Shown: one piece after another, positions 1 through 7,664 of the stretch
How the letters are laid out: every line of letters starts with the position of its first letter
How positions within the stretch are numbered: position 1 is the stretch's first letter
DNA from: a virus
Taxonomy: Duplodnaviria; Heunggongvirae; Uroviricota; Caudoviricetes
Direction: 5' to 3' (one strand)
DNA length: 7,664 nucleotides
Virus record (IMG/VR): IMGVR_UViG_2537562019_000010
The notes under the pieces: generated by a model
Seen by the model: the letters and a program-made list of their open reading frames with translations, nothing else
Database searches by the model: none
What the model was told of the DNA's origin: nothing
Translations under genes and position numbers: made by a program

Positions 1-141
1 CGACTGTTCAACGACTGTCGCTGTTTTTTTCGCATCACTTTCCGTACCGGAAAAATGACGCCTGACTCTGGCCATCTGCTCGTCAAATCTGGCCGCATCC
101 AGACTCAAATCAACGACCAGATCGCCTACCGGTTCAGCCAT
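1..141 (-). CDS. H: Tail tape-measure protein H, N-terminal fragment (gene continues past window start)
   Basis: Minus-strand translation from ATG at 139-141 reads MAEPVGDLVVDLSLDAARFDEQMARVRRHFSGTESDAKKTATVVEQS, which matches my recollection of the lambda gpH N-terminus. The start overlaps the T stop (ATGGCTGA), as in lambda. Too short in-window to appear in the ORF track. Confidence 0.78.
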   Translation of the reverse strand, partial: MAEPVGDLVVDLSLDAARFDEQMARVRRHFSGTESDAKKTATVVEQS

Positions 142-568
142 ACCGGACTCCTCCTGCGATCCCTTCTGATACTGTCATCAGCATTACGTCATCCTCCGTC
201 ATGTCCGCCACATCCGGGGAAGCGGGGATAACTTCATTCCCGTCCGGGCCAAAGCGGACGCCTCCGGCAAGCCCTGCCGCTTTCTGCATCAGCACATCAT
301 CTTCAGGCTCTTCGTCAGCCTCGCGCCGGTTCAGCAGACTGAAATCCAGCGGATGCATATCCGGATCGCTGAAAAACAGGCTGAGTACGGTGTACGTCAG
401 CCCGGAAAAGTGCATATCCAGCAGAACATCATGAAAATAATGGGTACTGTAAAAGCGGTGCCAGTCGGCATACTCCGTGGATGACATCCCGGCAAGCATG
501 GCACGCCAGTCGGGTCGCCCCATCTCACGCGCCAGTTTCAGGGCAAAACTCAGCTCACCATCGAACAC
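134..568 (-). CDS. T: Tail assembly chaperone T reading frame (normally made only as a G-T fusion by -1 ribosomal frameshift)
   Basis: ORF track 134..568 (144 aa), MFDGELSFALKLAREMGRPDWRAMLAGMSSTEYADWHRFY..., near-identical to recalled lambda gpT. The apparent GTG 'start' at 566-568 is simply the first codon after the slippery site, not an independent initiation site. Confidence 0.85.
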   Translation of the reverse strand: MFDGELSFALKLAREMGRPDWRAMLAGMSSTEYADWHRFYSTHYFHDVLLDMHFSGLTYTVLSLFFSDPDMHPLDFSLLNRREADEEPEDDVLMQKAAGLAGGVRFGPDGNEVIPASPDVADMTEDDVMLMTVSEGIAGGVRYG

Positions 569-970
569 TTTCCCGCAGAAACAGGCTCTGCAGGCCCGGC
601 GTCCTCTGCCTGTTCAGGAGCATCATTCACAACAAACTCAGACATACCGGACAGACGCACACCACATTTTCAGCATGAGAAATTGCCTCCGTGGGCCAGG
701 TGGTAAGCACTTCCTGCTCAATCTGTTTAACGGCTTCATTCATGGAAGGCAGCTTTGTCTTCTGCGGATGGTTATGCCACAGGGACATCGCCACCAGAAA
801 AGCACCGGTTCTGACGAGTCTTCCACACTAAACTTCCGGTTGCTGTCTGACTCCGCCTGTTCTGCCTGCCGTTTCATCAGGGCGAGATGCTCAATACGCT
901 GCAGGGCTGACAGTTCAGAAAGCGTGACGGTCACACCGTTATGTTCAAATGATTCGGTTTTCAGGAACAT
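550..970 (-). pseudogene. G: Tail assembly chaperone G, apparently disrupted by two 1-bp deletions
   Basis: ORF track 740..970 (76 aa) begins MFLKTESFEHNGVTVTLSELSALQRIEHLALMKRQAEQAESDSNRKF (lambda gpG N-terminus), then diverges and stops at 740. The recognisable gpG sequence continues in a second frame (RTGAFLVAMSLWHNHPQK...AISHAENVV) and then a third (RLSGM.EFVVN.APEQ.EDAGPAEPVSAGK) to a stop at 550. G start to T start is 402 nt (same frame), where the G/T architecture needs 404 nt (T in the -1 frame). Confidence 0.72.
568..574 (-). promoter_or_regulatory. Programmed -1 ribosomal frameshift slippery heptamer GGGAAAG (G to G-T)
   Basis: Minus-strand sequence reads ...GCG GGA AAG TGT TCG..., with GGGAAAG immediately 5' of the first T-frame codon. 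This is the classic lambda G/T slippery site and position. Confidence 0.6.
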
Positions 971-985
971 CGCTGACTCTCCGGA

Positions 986-1726
986 TTAACTGGCGGTGAC
1001 GTTGATTTCTGCAACCGCAGCAAGTTCACCATTACCGGATACGACCGGAATGTTGACCTTGCCTGCAGCAACACCTTTCACGGTGATGGTCATACCACTG
1101 ACCGACACGGTGGCTTTTGTTTTATCCGCAGACACCGCACGGAAGCTCTTGTCGGTTGCGCCTTCCGGCTGGAATGCCACGGTCAGCGTGGTGCTCTGCC
1201 CTTTCACCACCGAAGTGCTGGCAGGCGTCACGGTCATGCCGGTTGCCGCTGTTACCGTGCTGCGATCTTCTGCCATCGACGGACGTCCCACGTTGGTGAC
1301 TTTCACCGTGCGGGTGATCACTTCCTTCGCCGTCACCGCCTTACCGATACTGCTGACCCAGCCGCGGAACACATCGACCGTGCCGTTCGGGAAGCGGATT
1401 TTATAGGCACGGGTATCCCCTTCATTAAACCACGCCAGCAGCGCCTGCTGCCCCTGCTCTCCGGGCATCCACGCCAGCGTGAAGCTGGTATCTCCGGCAG
1501 ATTTCTGCCCCTGCCCGGTCGCAGTCCAGTCCGCATCTTCATCATCGAGATAGCTGTCGTCATAGGACTCAGCGGTCAGTTCGCCGGGCGTCAGGTCTTT
1601 AACCTTTGCCAGACGCGACCAGTCAACGTCTGAAAGCGGGTTCGCATAAGGGTCACCGCTCCCGTTATAAACCCACAGTGTGGTCCCGGCCCCTTTCACC
1701 GGTGCCAGAGGATTTGGTGTTGGCAT
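986..1726 (-). CDS. V: Major tail tube protein V (246 aa) with C-terminal Ig-like domain
   Basis: ORF track 986..1756. Lambda gpV homology begins at [20 protein letters not shown]..., so the start is placed at the ATG at 1724-1726, preceded by GAGGA. Length is 246 aa as in lambda. The C-terminal ~90 aa look like the Ig-like domain ([52 protein letters not shown]). Confidence 0.9.
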
Positions 1727-3080: not shown

Positions 3081-3479
3081 TTATTGCATTCTGGCCAGGC
3101 CACGTTCTGTCATTTCGGCTGCCACACCGGCAGAGACACGAAACGCCGTTCCCGGCAGCACAAATGCCACAGGTTTATCCCGCGTGGCGTGAAGTGCATC
3201 AGTATGCAGCGTCACCAGTGCCACGACCGTGACCAGTTCAGCCGTATCCTGAATCACGGTATCCGGCTGCGCTGATATCACCTCATTTTCATGCCCGGTC
3301 AGCACATTTTCCCGGCTGAGAGGGGTGTCCTGACCGGCAGTTTCATCCGTGTCATCAAGCTCTTCTTCCAGCTCTGCCACACGAAGCGCCAGTTCTTCTT
3401 TCGTTCCCGTCAAACTGATATCGCGGTTCAGTTGCTCACCCAGCTCCTGAAGACGGGCAATCAGTTCATCTTTCGTCAT
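3081..3479 (-). CDS. FI: DNA packaging / head assembly protein FI
   Basis: ORF track 3081..3518, trimmed to the internal ATG (MTKDELIARLQELGEQLNRD...) that matches the lambda gpFI start (132 aa) and is preceded by a strong GGAGGAG RBS. The longer upstream start would lie inside the E/FI hairpin. Confidence 0.86.
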   Translation of the reverse strand: MTKDELIARLQELGEQLNRDISLTGTKEELALRVAELEEELDDTDETAGQDTPLSRENVLTGHENEVISAQPDTVIQDTAELVTVVALVTLHTDALHATRDKPVAFVLPGTAFRVSAGVAAEMTERGLARMQ

Positions 3480-3520: not shown

Positions 3521-4546
3521 TTACGCCAGTTGAACGGACACGAACTCATCAGGATCAGCCAGCAGCATCAGCGGTGCTGACTGAATCATGGTGAACTCAC
3601 GCGCCGGATCGCCGGTGGTCACCCAGTTTTTCGGGTAACGGGCAGAGGCGTTAATGCCTTCGCGCTGTGCGTCCGCATCCTGAATGCAGCCATAGGTGCG
3701 CAGACCGCGAGCCTGAGTGTTCCCCAGCACCATCGTGTTGTCCGGCAGGAAGTTCTTTTTGACGCCGTTTTCCACGTACTGTCCGGAATACACGACGATG
3801 GCCACATCGCCATACATTCCCTTATAGGACACCGCTTTGCCCAGGTCTTTTACCGCTGTCTCCAGCTCGGAATGAGAGCCGCGACGGGTATCCAGCTTCT
3901 CCTTGACGGCTTTGAAGGAACGGAACAGCGCCCAGCCTTTCGGATCAAACACGATGATATTCACCACACCGCTGGCGTTCAGCGCGTAGGCTTCGATATC
4001 GTCGGTCGGGTCATACGTGGACTTGTCGCGCTTGCTCCACCCCGTGCCGCCGGACTGCGTGATGTTATTCGCCGCACTGCGGCCCATATCCACCTCAACC
4101 GGATCGAAGGCTTCACCGGTCATGGTGTATTTGCCCTTAAGCACGGCAGAAACTGCCTGCATCTCTTCGACCTGGGCAATCGCCAGATTTTCGTCACGCA
4201 TGTTCTGCAGGATAATACGGCGACGACGGTAAGCCGGGTCCGCCAGATTCTGCGGATCTTCATCCGGCAGGCGACGCAGGGTCATCTGCGGATTCACCTC
4301 ATGCTTGGGTTTGACATATCCCGGCGTAAATTCAGAGGTGGAGCCGCCACGGGAACGGATAACCTCACCGGAAACAATCGGCGAAACGTACAGCGCCATG
4401 TTTACCAGTCCAGGAATTTGTGAGAGATAGACTTTCTCCGTGGTGAAAGGATAGGTTTCACGGAAAAACAGGCGCAGAAACAGCGGATCGAACTTAAAGT
4501 GATGCTGGGTCGATGCCAGTAATTCTGCAGTTGTATATACAGACAT
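3521..4546 (-). CDS. E: Major capsid protein E (HK97 fold family)
   Basis: ORF track 3521..4546 (341 aa), MSVYTTAELLASTQHHFKFDPLFLRLFFRETYPFTTEKVYLSQIPGLVNMALYVSPIVSGE...DEFVSVQLA, lambda gpE length and near-identical sequence. Confidence 0.95.
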   Translation of the reverse strand: MSVYTTAELLASTQHHFKFDPLFLRLFFRETYPFTTEKVYLSQIPGLVNMALYVSPIVSGEVIRSRGGSTSEFTPGYVKPKHEVNPQMTLRRLPDEDPQNLADPAYRRRRIILQNMRDENLAIAQVEEMQAVSAVLKGKYTMTGEAFDPVEVDMGRSAANNITQSGGTGWSKRDKSTYDPTDDIEAYALNASGVVNIIVFDPKGWALFRSFKAVKEKLDTRRGSHSELETAVKDLGKAVSYKGMYGDVAIVVYSGQYVENGVKKNFLPDNTMVLGNTQARGLRTYGCIQDADAQREGINASARYPKNWVTTGDPAREFTMIQSAPLMLLADPDEFVSVQLA

Positions 4547-4555
4547 AAATTATTT

Positions 4556-4583
4556 CCATAAAAAAAGCCGCACAGGCGGCCTT
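4556..4583 (-). terminator. Intergenic hairpin plus T-run between D stop and E start (intrinsic-terminator-like)
   Basis: Minus-strand reads AAAGGCCGC-CUGU-GCGGC followed by a run of at least 7 U, then the E start region. A GC stem plus U-tract is intrinsic-terminator-like. Coordinates approximate. Confidence 0.4.
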
Positions 4584-4601
4584 TGTTGATGAAGGGGAAG
4601 A

Positions 4602-4934
4602 TTAAACGATGCTGATTGCCGTTCCGGCAAACGCGGTCCGTTTTTTCGTCTCGTCGCTGGCAGCCTCCGGCCAGAGCACATCCTCATAACGGAACGTGCC
4701 GGACTTGTAGAACGTCAGTGTGGTGCTGGTCTGGTCAGCAGCAACTGCAAGAATGCCAACGGCAGCACCGTCGGTGGTGCCATCCCACGCAACCAGCTTA
4801 CGGGTGGAGGTGTCCAGCATCAGCGGGGTCATTGCAGGCGCTTTCGCACTCAACCCGCCGGGCGCGGTTGCGGTATGAGCCGGGTCACTGTTGCCCAGCG
4901 GCTGGTAATGGGTAAAGGTTTCTTTGCTCGTCAT
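4602..4934 (-). CDS. D: Head decoration protein D
   Basis: ORF track 4602..4940. Lambda gpD homology begins at the second Met ([27 protein letters not shown]...AGTAISIV, 110 aa), with AAGGGA upstream. Confidence 0.9.
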
Positions 4935-4943
4935 AAACATCCC

Positions 4944-5549
4944 TTACACTGGTGTGTTCAGCAAATCGTTAACGGCATCAGATGCCGGGTTACCTGCAGC
5001 CAGCGGTGCCGGTGTACCCTGCATCAGACGATCCAGCGCAGTGTCACTGCGCGCCTGTGCACTCTGTGGTGCTGCAGCCAGAATGCGGCGGGCCGTTTCC
5101 ACGGTCATTCCGGGGGTTTCTGCCAGAACGCGCGCCTGTTCTTCGCGTCCGTGAGCCTCCTCACAGTTGAGGATCCCCATAATGCGGCTGTTTTCTGCCG
5201 CAACCGCAGCGGTGATCTGCGCGTTCACGTCCGGCTGCGCCGCGCTGGCGTTTTCGCCCTCCGTCGCTGGCACCACGTCAGTAACGTCAGCCTGCGAAGC
5301 AGTGGCTGAAACAGTTGTTGATTGAGTCTCTTTGGTCATTCGCCCTCCTGAGAGACGGGATTTATGTGCATCCAGTGCATCACGCATGACGGTGATCGCA
5401 TCGGTGCTGTTAACAAGTTCATCAGCCAGTCCGGCATCAATGGCCTCCTGACCGCTGTACACTGCAGCCTCGGTATCCAGCACAGCCTGCACAGACAGGC
5501 CGGTATATGCCGACACCTTCTGCGCAAACATCCGGCGGGTTGCGTCCAT
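4944..5549 (-). CDS. Nu3: Capsid scaffolding protein Nu3 (in-frame internal start within C; shares the C-terminal 201 aa)
   Basis: Internal Met in the C frame (MDATRRMFAQKVSAYTGLSVQ...) gives a 201-aa product, the same nested arrangement and length as lambda Nu3. Coordinates derived by frame arithmetic from the C stop. Confidence 0.72.
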   Translation of the reverse strand: MDATRRMFAQKVSAYTGLSVQAVLDTEAAVYSGQEAIDAGLADELVNSTDAITVMRDALDAHKSRLSGGRMTKETQSTTVSATASQADVTDVVPATEGENASAAQPDVNAQITAAVAAENSRIMGILNCEEAHGREEQARVLAETPGMTVETARRILAAAPQSAQARSDTALDRLMQGTPAPLAAGNPASDAVNDLLNTPV

Positions 5550-6263
5550 CCGGGACTGCAGTGTCTCCCGGACGTCATCCGGAAGATGGCTGTAAGGATT
5601 GCCATCCACCTTATGGCTGCCGCTGTAAATCAGCGTGATTTCCACGCCCTGTTTCTCCAGGGCAGCACCGTAATTACTGTGAGCCATCATGACGCCGATG
5701 GAGCCTGTCCGGGCGGTCTGCGTGACCAGACGCCGGGAGGCGGCGCTGGCAAGCAGCTGACCTGCACTGCAGTTCATGTCGTTGGCCAGCGCCCATACCG
5801 GTTTTATGTCTCGCACACGGGCGATGATGTCAGCACAGTCAAATGCTCCCGCCACCATCCCGCCCGGTGTGTCCATATCCAGCAGAATGCCGTCCACCAT
5901 CGGATCGCTGGCAGCCTGTTGCAGACGGGCGATAATGCCGTTGTAACCGGTCATCCCCGAATACGGCTGCAGCGCCCGCGTCCGGCTGACCAGCGTGCCG
6001 GACACCGGCAGCACGGCGATGCCGTTCATGACCTGATAACTGCGGGCCTGTCGTGGTCCGTCATCATCACCGGATAACGCCAGCGGCGCGGGTGCCTCTC
6101 CGGCAGTCAGGCTGTCGCCGGACACCGCATCCGTCAGGCGGCTGATCCCAAGCTGGCCTGCAAGCGCACAAAAGAAAACCCGCGCATAGGCGGGTTCAAG
6201 CATCAGCGGCTCATTAAAGGCCATGCTGGCAATATGCGGGAGATTACGCAGCTCTGCTGTCAC
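4944..6263 (-). CDS. C: Capsid assembly / prohead protease C (S49 family)
   Basis: ORF track 4944..6398 is a long open frame. Lambda gpC homology (TAELRNLPHIASMAFNEPLMLEPAYARVFF...) begins at a GTG at 6261-6263, preceded by GGAGGAG, giving 439 aa as in lambda. The extra upstream codons are out-of-frame read-through of the B 3' end. The C start overlaps the B stop by 20 nt, as in lambda. Confidence 0.85.
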   Translation of the reverse strand: MTAELRNLPHIASMAFNEPLMLEPAYARVFFCALAGQLGISRLTDAVSGDSLTAGEAPAPLALSGDDDGPRQARSYQVMNGIAVLPVSGTLVSRTRALQPYSGMTGYNGIIARLQQAASDPMVDGILLDMDTPGGMVAGAFDCADIIARVRDIKPVWALANDMNCSAGQLLASAASRRLVTQTARTGSIGVMMAHSNYGAALEKQGVEITLIYSGSHKVDGNPYSHLPDDVRETLQSRMDATRRMFAQKVSAYTGLSVQAVLDTEAAVYSGQEAIDAGLADELVNSTDAITVMRDALDAHKSRLSGGRMTKETQSTTVSATASQADVTDVVPATEGENASAAQPDVNAQITAAVAAENSRIMGILNCEEAHGREEQARVLAETPGMTVETARRILAAAPQSAQARSDTALDRLMQGTPAPLAAGNPASDAVNDLLNTPV

Positions 6264-7664
6264 TCTTCTCCTCCTCTGTTGATTGTCGCAGTCCGGATTC
6301 AAATGTCGCTGCCGCCCAGGCGGGCGGTTTAAGACCGGCTGCGCGGCGCTCCATCGTTTCACGGACCTGCTGGGCAAAAATTTCCTGATAGTCGTCACCG
6401 CGTTTTGCGCACTCTTTCTCGTAGGTACTCAGTCCGGCTTCTATCAGCATCACCGCTTCCTGTACTTCTTTCAGACCATCGATGGCCATACGACCGGAGC
6501 CTATCCAGTCGCAGTTCCCCCAGGCACTGCGGGCTTCCTGAAAACTGAAGCGCGCTTTTGAAGGTAACGTCACCACGCGGCGAACGATGGCCTCTTCCAG
6601 CCAGCACAGAAACATCTGGCTCGCCTGACGGGATGCGACGAATTTTCGCCGCCCCATAAAGTACGCCCAGACTCGTTCGCACTGGCCCGTGCCGTGGAGT
6701 AGCTCATCTGGGCGTAATTCCGGGAAAGCTGCTCATACGAGACACCCAGCCCGGCAGCGATATACCGCAACAGTGACTGCTCAAACACGGAGTAGCCGTT
6801 ATCCGTGTCCTGAGCCGTCTGCAGGTTCAGTGAGTCCCCCGGCATCAGGTGCGGCACTTTTGCGCCTCCCAGCGGACCGGTGCGCGGCGTAATACGCGGC
6901 AATTTCACCAATCCAGCCGGTCAGCTTGTCCCGCTGCTCCTGACTGTTCGCGCCCAGAATAAAATCCATCGCTGACTGCGTATCCAGCTCACTTTCAATG
7001 GTGGCGGCATACATCGCCTTCACAATGGCGCTCTGCAGCTGCGTGTTCTGCAGCGTGTCGAGCATCTTCATCTGCTCCATCACGCTGTAAAACACATTTG
7101 CACCGCGAGTCTGCCCGTCCTCCACGGGTTCAAAAACGTGAATGAACGAGGCGCGCCCGCCGGGTAACTCACGGGGTATCCATGTCCATTTCTGCGGCAT
7201 CCAGCCAGGATACCCGTCCTCGCTGACGTAATATCCCAGCGCCGCGCCGCTGTCATTAATCTGCACACCGGCACGGCAGTTCCGGCTGTCGCCGGTATTG
7301 TTCGGGTTGCTGATGCGCTTCGGGCTGACCATCCGGAACTGTGTCCGGAACAGCCGCGACGAACTGGTATCCCAGGTGGCCTGAACGAACAGTTCACCGT
7401 TAAAGGCGTGCATGGCCACACCTTCCCGAATCATCATGGTAAACGTGCGTTTTCGCTCAACGTCAATGCAGCAGCAGTCATCCTCGGCAAACTCTTTCCA
7501 TGCCGCTTCAACCTCGCGGGAAAAGGCACGGGCGTCTTCCTCCCCGATGCCCAGATAGCGCCAGCTTGGACGATGACTGAGCCGGAAAAAAGACCCGACG
7601 ATATGATCCTGATGCAGCTGGATGGCGTTGGCGGCATAGCCGTTATTGCGTACCAGATCGTCTG
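6244..7664 (-). pseudogene. B: Portal protein B, 3' ~1.4 kb (5' end beyond window), apparently interrupted by two compensating frameshifts
   Basis: Three consecutive ORF-track pieces together match recalled lambda gpB in order. 6799..7664 (open to the window edge; FRLSHRPSWRYLG...IPRELPGGRASFIHVFEPVEDGQTRGANVFYSVMEQMKMLDTLQNTQLQSAIVKAMYAATIESELDT...) stops at 6799. 6570..6911 is in a second frame (...GGAKVPHLMPGDSLNLQTAQDTDNGYSVFEQSLLRYIAAGLGVSYEQLSR...ARASANES). 6244..6657 is back in the first frame (MGRRKFVASRQASQMFLCWLEE...MAIDGLKEVQEAVMLIEAGLSTYEKE...). Confidence 0.8.

What the first reader, a model, noticed from the sequence alone, without database searches (positions are those of the whole stretch)
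550..970. Tail chaperone G carries two apparent 1-bp deletions, so G now starts in the same frame as T and the G/G-T frameshift architecture is broken
In lambda, T lies in the -1 frame relative to G and gpG-T is made by slippage at GGGAAAG, with a fixed G:GT ratio needed for tail assembly. Here the G ATG (968-970) and the T frame (566-568) are 402 nt apart, so in the same frame, and the G entry frame stops at 740 after 76 aa. The gpG-like sequence continues in two further frames, with shifts near 810-830 and 650-665. The slippery site and T frame are intact but ribosomes starting at G cannot reach them in the right frame. The upstream site does not look like a homopolymer, which argues somewhat against a trivial sequencing error.
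Basis: partly seen in the sequence, partly recalled or inferred. Interest (0 to 1): 0.55.

Follow-up and report, generated by a model that had tools for sequence, protein, structure and literature searches.

The report
Assembly-error frameshifts in prophage tail chaperone
The lambda-type tail-chaperone gene G in this sequence does lack two single bases, which breaks the G/G-T frameshift set-up, but the lesions exist only in this one short draft contig and are most likely consensus errors from assembling a multi-copy prophage region, so the finding is ordinary.

Summary
On the minus strand, lambda-type G (ATG 970-968) lacks one base at 818/817 and one at 659/658. It stops after 76 codons at 742-740. 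Its start is now in the same frame as T, and the intact slippery site GGGAAAG (574-568) cannot be reached in the right phase.

The biological reading is doubtful. The window is the whole 7,664-bp contig APXB01000065.1 of ETEC strain 179550, built from Illumina 100-bp reads with the Celera Assembler. The same contig has three more single-base deletions in the portal gene (6884/6883, 6873/6872, 6670/6669).

- None of the five deletions occurs in 57-139 natural homologues, 120 IMG/VR matches or the listed GenBank phage and complete E. coli hits.
- The truncated G product is a singleton among about 15 billion proteins.
- The contig has only 3 private substitutions against 5 private deletions.
- None of the five sites is a homopolymer run of three or more bases, and they fall in two tight clusters (P about 9e-4).
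- Seven of the nine intact genes encode proteins also found elsewhere.
- Related strains carry 2-3 copies of this region about 96.5% identical.

Best explanation: consensus error in a collapsed prophage repeat (about 0.8). Alternative: a really defective prophage (about 0.17). Mapping the reads SRR446711 would settle it.

The parts
740..970 (-). G entry-frame ORF: ATG 970-968, 76 codons, stop 742-740. Only the first ~50 residues are gpG-like.
   Evidence: Pfam PF06894 matches residues 1-52 only.
817..818 (-). G deletion 1: one C of a CC pair is missing (natural allele GAA GAC CTC GTC AGA = E D L V R). It lies inside a short patch of divergent-class alleles (828-815).
   Evidence: 0 of 57 natural G genes share it.
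658..659 (-). G deletion 2: one T of a TT pair is missing (natural allele GTG GTG TTG CGT CTG = V V L R L). It lies inside a second divergent-allele patch (666-631).
   Evidence: 0 of 57 natural G genes share it.
550..970 (-). Whole G gene remnant, 421 nt instead of 423. Inserting one base at each site gives a 140-aa lambda-type tail assembly chaperone.
568..574 (-). Slippery heptamer GGGAAAG of the programmed -1 frameshift. The sequence is intact but sits in phase 0 instead of phase 2 relative to the G ATG.
134..568 (-). T reading frame (144 codons, PF06223), intact. This exact protein is seen on >=1000 contigs elsewhere.
6883..6884 (-). Portal (B) deletion 1, codon 320: natural GCCGC[A/C]GCACC.
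   Evidence: 0 of 139 natural sequences share it.
6872..6873 (-). Portal deletion 2, codon 324: natural GTCCG[T/G]CTGG.
6669..6670 (-). Portal deletion 3, codon 392: natural GAGTC[G]TGGG.
   Evidence: 0 of 136 natural sequences share it.
6244..7664 (-). Portal gene B, cut at its 5' end by the contig end (starts at portal nt 179) and split into pieces by the three deletions: 7662-6799, the middle frame, and 6657-6244.
986..1726 (-). Major tail protein V (246 aa, intact), upstream neighbour of G.
1..141 (-). Start of tape measure gene H (ATG 141), cut by the other contig end.

Best explanation
The locus is an ordinary lambda-type V-G-T-H tail module. The two missing bases in G, and three more in the portal gene, are most likely not in the bacterium's DNA. 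They are probably consensus errors made when 100-bp Illumina reads from two or three co-resident lambdoid prophages, a few per cent diverged, were merged by the Celera Assembler into one short contig. Where reads of different copies disagree, the multiple alignment can place the alternative bases in separate half-gapped columns, and the consensus then drops a base. Shown here: the contig's provenance and assembly method, that the lesions are private, their number, type and clustering, and that related strains carry this region in several copies. Inferred: that strain 179550 itself carries several copies, and the exact consensus mechanism.
For: (1) The window is the complete 7,664-bp contig APXB01000065.1 of draft assembly GCA_000356365.2. 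The strain is ETEC 179550 with reads SRR446711, sequenced as Illumina HiSeq 100-bp reads and assembled with the Celera Assembler. Both contig ends fall inside conserved phage genes, portal nt 179 and H codon 47.
(2) The region is multi-copy. E. coli genomes that have it carry a median of 2 and up to 9 places. The best whole-window hit, ETEC O114:H49 strain 90-9280 from Bangladesh, has 3 places. Two of them were fetched and differ at 266 of 7,681 columns, i.e. 96.5% identity.
(3) The lesions are private. The 76-aa product is a singleton among about 15 billion proteins. No natural sequence shares any of the five deletions: 0/57 for G and 0/136-139 for the portal. All 120 IMG/VR portal matches and both IMG/VR G-site matches carry the extra base.
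(4) The spectrum is wrong for evolution. There are 5 private 1-bp deletions against only 3 private substitutions at a median panel depth of 93. Of 38 distinct natural full-length homologues, 37 have no private frame-breaking indel. Seven of the nine intact genes encode proteins also found on other contigs, from 2-3 (V) to >=1000 (U, D, T).
(5) None of the five sites is a homopolymer run of three or more bases. The natural frameshifts found in homologues are all in runs: T6, CCC, A6, G6.
(6) The five sites fall into two tight groups of 214 nt and 160 nt, P about 9e-4. The G sites sit in the middle of two short patches carrying alleles of a divergent G class. Two portal deletions fall exactly on columns that differ between the two 90-9280 copies.
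(7) Merging of near-identical repeat copies, with reads of different copies co-assembled at the positions where they differ, is a documented error class (PMC2397507).
Against: I could not see the reads, so the multi-copy state of strain 179550 and the mixed columns are inferred. Illumina reads rarely carry indels, and high-coverage consensus is usually accurate. Really defective lambdoid prophages do exist in the same data: portal nonsense in L140, stops in L121, and frameshifts in L022, L133 and L069. The third portal deletion is at a column that is invariant in 136 natural sequences, so it is not at a known difference between copies. The window's fine A/B mosaic is not evidence for chimerism, because natural prophages score as equally or more mosaic in the same test. 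Adjacency of the deletions to substitution columns is only modestly significant (P 0.02-0.05). No copy in 90-9280 reproduces the window's G alleles.
Confidence: 0.8

Rival explanations
1. The deletions are real. Strain 179550 carries a recently inactivated lambda-like prophage whose portal gene and tail chaperone gene G are both frameshifted. Ribosomes starting at the G ATG stop after 76 codons, so neither gpG nor the gpG-T fusion is made. The tape measure protein would then not be chaperoned and no tails would assemble, and without a portal no heads would form either.
For: Taken at face value, the sequence encodes exactly this. Defective lambdoid prophages with broken portal or G genes occur at a few per cent in the natural panel: 3 of 80 portals and 1 of 47 G genes, plus the L140 portal nonsense mutation. 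Illumina data rarely produce indel errors.
Against: The lesions appear in no other assembly. Five single-base deletions sit alongside only 3 private substitutions, with no nonsense change, IS element or larger deletion. None of the five sites is a homopolymer run of three or more bases, unlike every natural frameshift seen in homologues. The sites are strongly clustered. Seven of the nine intact genes encode proteins also found elsewhere, so there is no sign of relaxed selection.
Confidence: 0.17
2. The deletions are real and tolerated because expression bypasses them, for example by two extra recoding events, transcriptional slippage, or internal starts that rebuild G and G-T activity from fragments.
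For: None found. The slippery site and the T frame are intact.
Against: GACTCGTC and GTGTGCGTC are not slippery or run sequences. Four stop codons lie in the entry frame before T. The portal gene is broken as well. No relative shares this arrangement.
Confidence: 0.01
3. The contig is a consensus over a mixed DNA sample (two strains or a contaminant) rather than over paralogous prophage copies within one genome. The resulting error type would be the same.
For: The same sequence features as for the best explanation apply. I cannot tell mixed copies from mixed strains without the reads.
Against: This is not needed. Related ETEC genomes already carry 2-3 diverged copies per genome.
Confidence: 0.02

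Closest known systems
Phage lambda G / G-T tail assembly chaperone with programmed -1 ribosomal frameshift (Levin, Hendrix and Casjens 1993; Xu, Hendrix and Duda 2004, 2013; cited from my own knowledge). Annotated examples: phage 434 CPT_434_14/15, and gpG/T in E. coli prophages.
   Same: It has the same position between V and H and the same families (PF06894 and PF06223). The slippery heptamer G GGA AAG is identical and the T frame is intact. The region is 96-97% identical in DNA to phage 434 and to many prophages.
   Different: As deposited, the G ORF is 2 nt short, stops after 76 codons, and is in phase with T instead of T lying at -1. No natural homologue examined has this spacing.
Collapsed near-identical repeat with incorrect consensus in a draft assembly (Phillippy, Schatz and Pop 2008, PMC2397507).
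   Same: It is a short contig made only of a multi-copy element and bounded inside conserved repeat sequence. It was made by an overlap-consensus assembler, and its errors are private to that assembly.
   Different: The defining read-level signatures could not be inspected: excess depth, and positions where the co-assembled reads disagree consistently ('correlated SNPs').
Genuinely defective lambdoid prophages, e.g. L140 portal W393*, and the L022, L133 and L069 homopolymer frameshifts.
   Same: Structural genes are broken in an otherwise lambda-like head-tail module.
   Different: Those carry one or two lesions of the usual kinds: a nonsense change, or slippage in runs of 3-6 bases. This window has five deletions, none in a run of three or more bases, in two clusters.

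Membership tests
Lambda-type tail assembly chaperone G/G-T (programmed -1 frameshift) | Gene pair located between the major tail protein gene (V) and the tape measure gene (H) | tested here: met
   Gene order V (1726-986), G (970-550), T (568-134), H (from 141). The order is the same in annotated relatives.
Lambda-type tail assembly chaperone G/G-T (programmed -1 frameshift) | G domain homology (Pfam PF06894 Phage_TAC_2) and T domain homology (PF06223 Phage_tail_T) | tested here: met
   Repaired G: PF06894 positions 1-125 of 126, E = 1.2e-57. The 76-aa product matches only positions 1-52. T: PF06223, E = 2.1e-14.
Lambda-type tail assembly chaperone G/G-T (programmed -1 frameshift) | Slippery heptamer X XXY YYZ (G GGA AAG) near the 3' end of G, read in the G frame | tested here: not met
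   The heptamer is present at 574-568, but it is offset 396 nt from the ATG (phase 0) instead of 398 nt (phase 2), and it lies behind four stop codons.
Lambda-type tail assembly chaperone G/G-T (programmed -1 frameshift) | Uninterrupted ~140-codon G ORF whose 3' end overlaps T in the -1 frame | tested here: not met
   The ORF stops at codon 77, and G and T are 402 nt apart, i.e. in phase. Relatives show 404 nt. The feature is met only after inserting one base at each of the two sites.
Lambda-type tail assembly chaperone G/G-T (programmed -1 frameshift) | Production of G and G-T at a fixed ratio | not testable with these tools
   This needs proteomics or a frameshift reporter assay.
Collapsed-repeat consensus artefact | The sequence is present in several diverged copies in the sequenced genome | tested here: inconclusive
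   Relatives have 2-3 copies, and two copies in 90-9280 are 96.5% identical. The E. coli median is 2. Strain 179550 itself could not be examined.
Collapsed-repeat consensus artefact | Excess read depth, and positions where the underlying reads disagree consistently (correlated SNPs) | not testable with these tools
   This needs the reads SRR446711.
Collapsed-repeat consensus artefact | Errors are private to the assembly and absent from independent assemblies | tested here: met
   The product is a singleton. 0 of 57-139 natural homologues share any deletion. The only other carrier of the 137-aa portal fragment owes it to a nonsense mutation.
Collapsed-repeat consensus artefact | Made by an assembler that merges reads differing by a few per cent, giving a short contig that ends inside the repeat | tested here: met
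   Celera Assembler on 100-bp reads. The contig is 7,664 bp and ends inside the portal gene and H. That its default overlap error limits tolerate a few per cent mismatch is from my own knowledge.
Prophage pseudogene (real decay) | The lesion is reproducible in independent data or in clonal relatives | tested here: not met
Prophage pseudogene (real decay) | A mutation spectrum typical of neutral decay: substitutions far outnumber indels, and indels fall mainly in runs | tested here: not met
   3 private substitutions against 5 private deletions, none in a run of three or more bases. Natural frameshifts in homologues are in runs.

The most novel reading that the evidence does not exclude
The five deletions are real and arose together. 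One possibility is error-prone gene conversion between co-resident lambdoid prophages, importing short divergent patches and losing single bases within them. That would knock out the portal and the tail chaperone of one prophage at a stroke, and would be an unusual mutational route to prophage domestication.
Probability: 0.05. Interest if true: 0.35.

Novelty: not a real feature. Interest (0 to 1): 0.06.

Why it matters
If real, this would be one more defective lambdoid prophage unable to make gpG, gpG-T or a portal, which is common and well understood. The practical value is a caution. Frameshifts in prophage structural genes taken from short contigs of older short-read draft assemblies should not be read as biology until the reads are checked, and a non-homopolymer context does not protect against consensus errors over merged repeat copies.

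Tried and rejected
I built the natural panel from DNA pattern scans and exact-protein look-ups instead.

(2) I looked for an independent assembly of the same strain (Logan, SRR446711) through the exact products of G, V, FII, Z and the 137-aa portal fragment. None surfaced. It is unknown whether that run is in the collection, so this is no evidence either way.

(3) The identical 137-aa portal fragment in Logan SRR28032547 looked like independent support for portal deletion 3. It is caused by a TGG>TAG nonsense change instead.

(4) The exact repaired G protein is not in the collection and the nearest cluster representative is 94% identical. G is so mosaic that this does not discriminate between the explanations.

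(5) I tested the idea that the window is visibly a chimera of the two prophage copies of relative 90-9280. The window matches copy A or B at 264 of 266 differing columns, in 31 blocks. A control showed that natural prophages give 32-74 blocks in the same test, so I rejected this as evidence.

(6) Permutation tests for adjacency of the deletions to substitution columns gave only P = 0.02-0.05, and I treat that as weak.

(7) The flanks beyond the contig ends in relatives show no divergence jump, which is uninformative.

(8) No complete E. coli genome holds a near-identical prophage. The best matches are 98.0% over the whole window, 98.9% for Z-FII and 97.3% for G.

Full report
**Observation.** The window's genes lie on the minus strand and form a lambda-type head-tail module. 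The order is portal B (cut by the window end), C, D, E, FI, FII, Z, U, V, G, T and the start of H.

G starts at ATG 970-968. Its entry frame stops at 742-740 after 76 codons. The gpG-like sequence then continues in a second frame and a third frame, ending at the normal stop 552-550. ATG to stop is 421 nt. It is 423 nt in 46 of 47 natural homologues (the other has 432) and in all listed phage and E. coli hits. 970-568 = 402, so the G start is in phase with T, whereas annotated relatives show 404 nt with T in the -1 frame. The slippery heptamer GGGAAAG (574-568) and the 144-codon T frame are intact.

**The exact lesions.** Base-level alignment places the missing bases at 818/817 and 659/658. The substitutions beside them are not new mutations. 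Natural G alleles read GAA GAC CTC GTC AGA (E-D-L-V-R) and GTG GTG TTG CGT CTG (V-V-L-R-L). 'VEDLVRTGA' occurs in 54 of the cluster representatives examined and 'VVLRLSGMSE' in 5.

So the window carries two short patches, 828-815 and 666-631, of alleles typical of a divergent G class inside a lambda-like backbone. In the middle of each patch one base of a two-base run is missing, CC to C and TT to T. Restoring the two bases gives a 140-aa protein that matches PF06894 end to end (E = 1.2e-57) and a complete G-T fusion through the slippery site.

**G is not alone.** Compared with close relatives the window has exactly five private single-base deletions. The other three are in the portal gene at 6884/6883, 6873/6872 and 6670/6669 (codons 320, 324 and 392), and they split that essential gene as well. 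All other length differences among relatives are in-frame polymorphisms of 3, 9 or 12 nt.

**Provenance.** The window is the entire contig APXB01000065.1 (7,664 bp) of draft assembly GCA_000356365.2, E. coli 179550. This is a CS7 enterotoxigenic isolate from Bangladesh with reads SRR446711 (PMC5469772 Table S1; PMC6301781). The project used Illumina HiSeq 2000 100-bp reads assembled with the Celera Assembler.

The contig begins at portal nt 179 and ends at H codon 47, so both ends fall inside conserved phage genes. This region is multi-copy in E. coli, with a median of 2 and up to 9 places per genome. The best whole-window hit, ETEC O114:H49 strain 90-9280 from Bangladesh, has 3 places. I fetched two of its copies and they differ at 266 of 7,681 columns, i.e. 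96.5% identity. As far as I know, reads that similar are merged by an overlap-consensus assembler at its usual error tolerances.

**Are the lesions seen anywhere else?** They are not.
- The 76-aa product is a singleton among about 15 billion proteins, while the T protein next to it is on at least 1000 contigs.
- In IMG/VR, the only matches to the two G sites carry the extra base, and all 120 matches to the portal pattern carry both extra bases.
- In a panel of about 150 natural loci (median depth 93), 0 of 57 G genes and 0 of 136-139 portal genes share any of the five deletions.
- Two Logan contigs from other samples that encode the identical V protein have intact 140-aa G genes.
- One Logan contig (SRR28032547) encodes the same 137-aa portal C-terminal fragment, but because of a TGG>TAG nonsense change, not the deletion.

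**Does the pattern look like evolution?** It does not.
- Against the panel the window has only 3 private substitutions (4041, 2678, 18) but 5 private deletions.
- Among 38 distinct natural full-length homologues, 37 have no private frame-breaking indel. The one exception (L069) has two, both in homopolymers (A6, G6). The other natural portal frameshifts are T6 to T5 and CCC to CC.
- The window's deletions remove single unrepeated bases or one base of a two-base run.
- The five sites fall into two groups spanning 214 nt and 160 nt, P about 9e-4 under random placement.
- Of the nine intact genes, seven encode proteins found on other contigs (U, D and T on at least 1000, FI on 337, Z on 37, FII on 17, V on 2-3). 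Only E and C are singletons. There is no sign of relaxed selection.

**Checks that weakened or failed to add support.**
- The window equals copy A or copy B of strain 90-9280 at 264 of the 266 columns where they differ. The two exceptions are portal deletions 1 and 2, and the window alternates between A and B in 31 blocks. A control showed that ordinary natural prophages give 32-74 blocks in the same test, so the mosaic is not evidence of chimerism.
- Adjacency of the deletions to substitution columns is only modestly significant (P 0.02-0.05).
- Portal deletion 3 is at a column invariant in 136 sequences.
- No copy in 90-9280 carries the window's G alleles.
- I could not find an independent assembly of this strain's reads.

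**Most likely mechanism.** This is a consensus error over a merged repeat. Reads from two or three co-resident lambdoid prophages were layered into one contig. Where the copies disagree, the alignment can split the alternative bases into half-gapped columns, and the consensus drops a base. This fits several things: the lesions are private, all are deletions, none is at a homopolymer run of three or more bases, and they cluster in patches where the contig switches allele type. The rest of the contig also looks healthy. Merging of near-identical repeats, with reads of different copies co-assembled at the positions where they differ, is a documented error class (PMC2397507). The multi-copy state of strain 179550 and the column-level mechanism are inferred, not shown. 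I put this at about 0.8.

**Main rival.** The deletions could be real, in a doubly defective prophage, at about 0.17. In that case translation from the G ATG ends after 76 codons and neither gpG nor gpG-T is made. From established knowledge of lambda (Levin et al. 1993; Xu et al. 2004, 2013; cited from memory), the tape measure protein would then not be chaperoned and tails would not assemble, and the broken portal would also block head assembly. Recoding that bypasses the lesions is very unlikely. There are no slippery sequences at the sites, four stops lie before T, and the portal is broken too.

**Comparison with what is known, and verdict.** By position, Pfam families and slippery site the locus is a member of the lambda G/G-T chaperone family. 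As deposited it fails the two defining features of an open G frame and a -1 relation to T, and meets them only after two single-base repairs. Nothing here is a new kind of system. The finding is best filed as not a real feature, with a small chance of being an ordinary defective prophage. Interest is low (0.06). Mapping SRR446711 to the contig would settle it in minutes.

Noticed in passing
window 6669-6884 (portal gene B, minus strand): Three further private single-base deletions (6884/6883, 6873/6872, 6670/6669) split the portal gene. They total -3 nt, so the last 137 codons are back in the original frame, but a stop at 6799-6801 ends translation before that.
   Followed up: yes
window 3521-4546 (E) and 4944-6263 (C); positions 4041, 2678, 18: The major capsid protein E and the protease/scaffold C of this contig are singletons in the ~15-billion protein collection. 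Positions 4041, 2678 and 18 are the only substitutions not seen in any of ~50-94 natural homologues. They could be further consensus errors or real private SNPs.
   Followed up: partly
L140 (Logan SRR28032547) 3972-5573: An unrelated isolate has a lambdoid portal gene broken by a TGG>TAG nonsense change at codon 393, giving the same 137-aa downstream ORF as this window. This is a genuine-looking defective prophage whose other genes, including G and T, are intact.
   Followed up: partly
L022, L133, L069 (IMG/VR prophage contigs): Natural or database frameshifts in homologous portal and nearby genes all lie in homopolymer runs (T6>T5, CCC>CC, A6>A5, G6>G5), in contrast to the window's sites.
   Followed up: partly
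L010 1775-9552; also L013, L015, L018: Contigs that share this window's exact FII protein have a lambdoid tail module preceded by a truncated E gene (254 aa) and a DUF2971 gene. In L010 an upstream island encodes a D5_N/DUF5906 primase, SSB, its own E-like capsid protein (346 aa) and D-like decoration protein (113 aa), AlpA and a Nu1-like small terminase. It looks like a capsid-encoding phage satellite abutting or replacing the head module.
   Followed up: no
NZ_CP024240.1 157,882-165,950 and 4,451,405-4,464,305 (L003, L151): ETEC O114:H49 strain 90-9280 carries at least two full lambdoid head-tail modules, 96.5% identical. The G and T proteins are identical in both copies. The second copy's portal, C and D proteins match those of ETEC-2264 exactly.
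   Followed up: partly
window 4949 and 3249-3251: These are in-frame length polymorphisms among natural alleles. Some relatives have a 12-nt insertion at the 3' end of C, and many relatives lack a 3-nt segment of FI that the window has.
   Followed up: no
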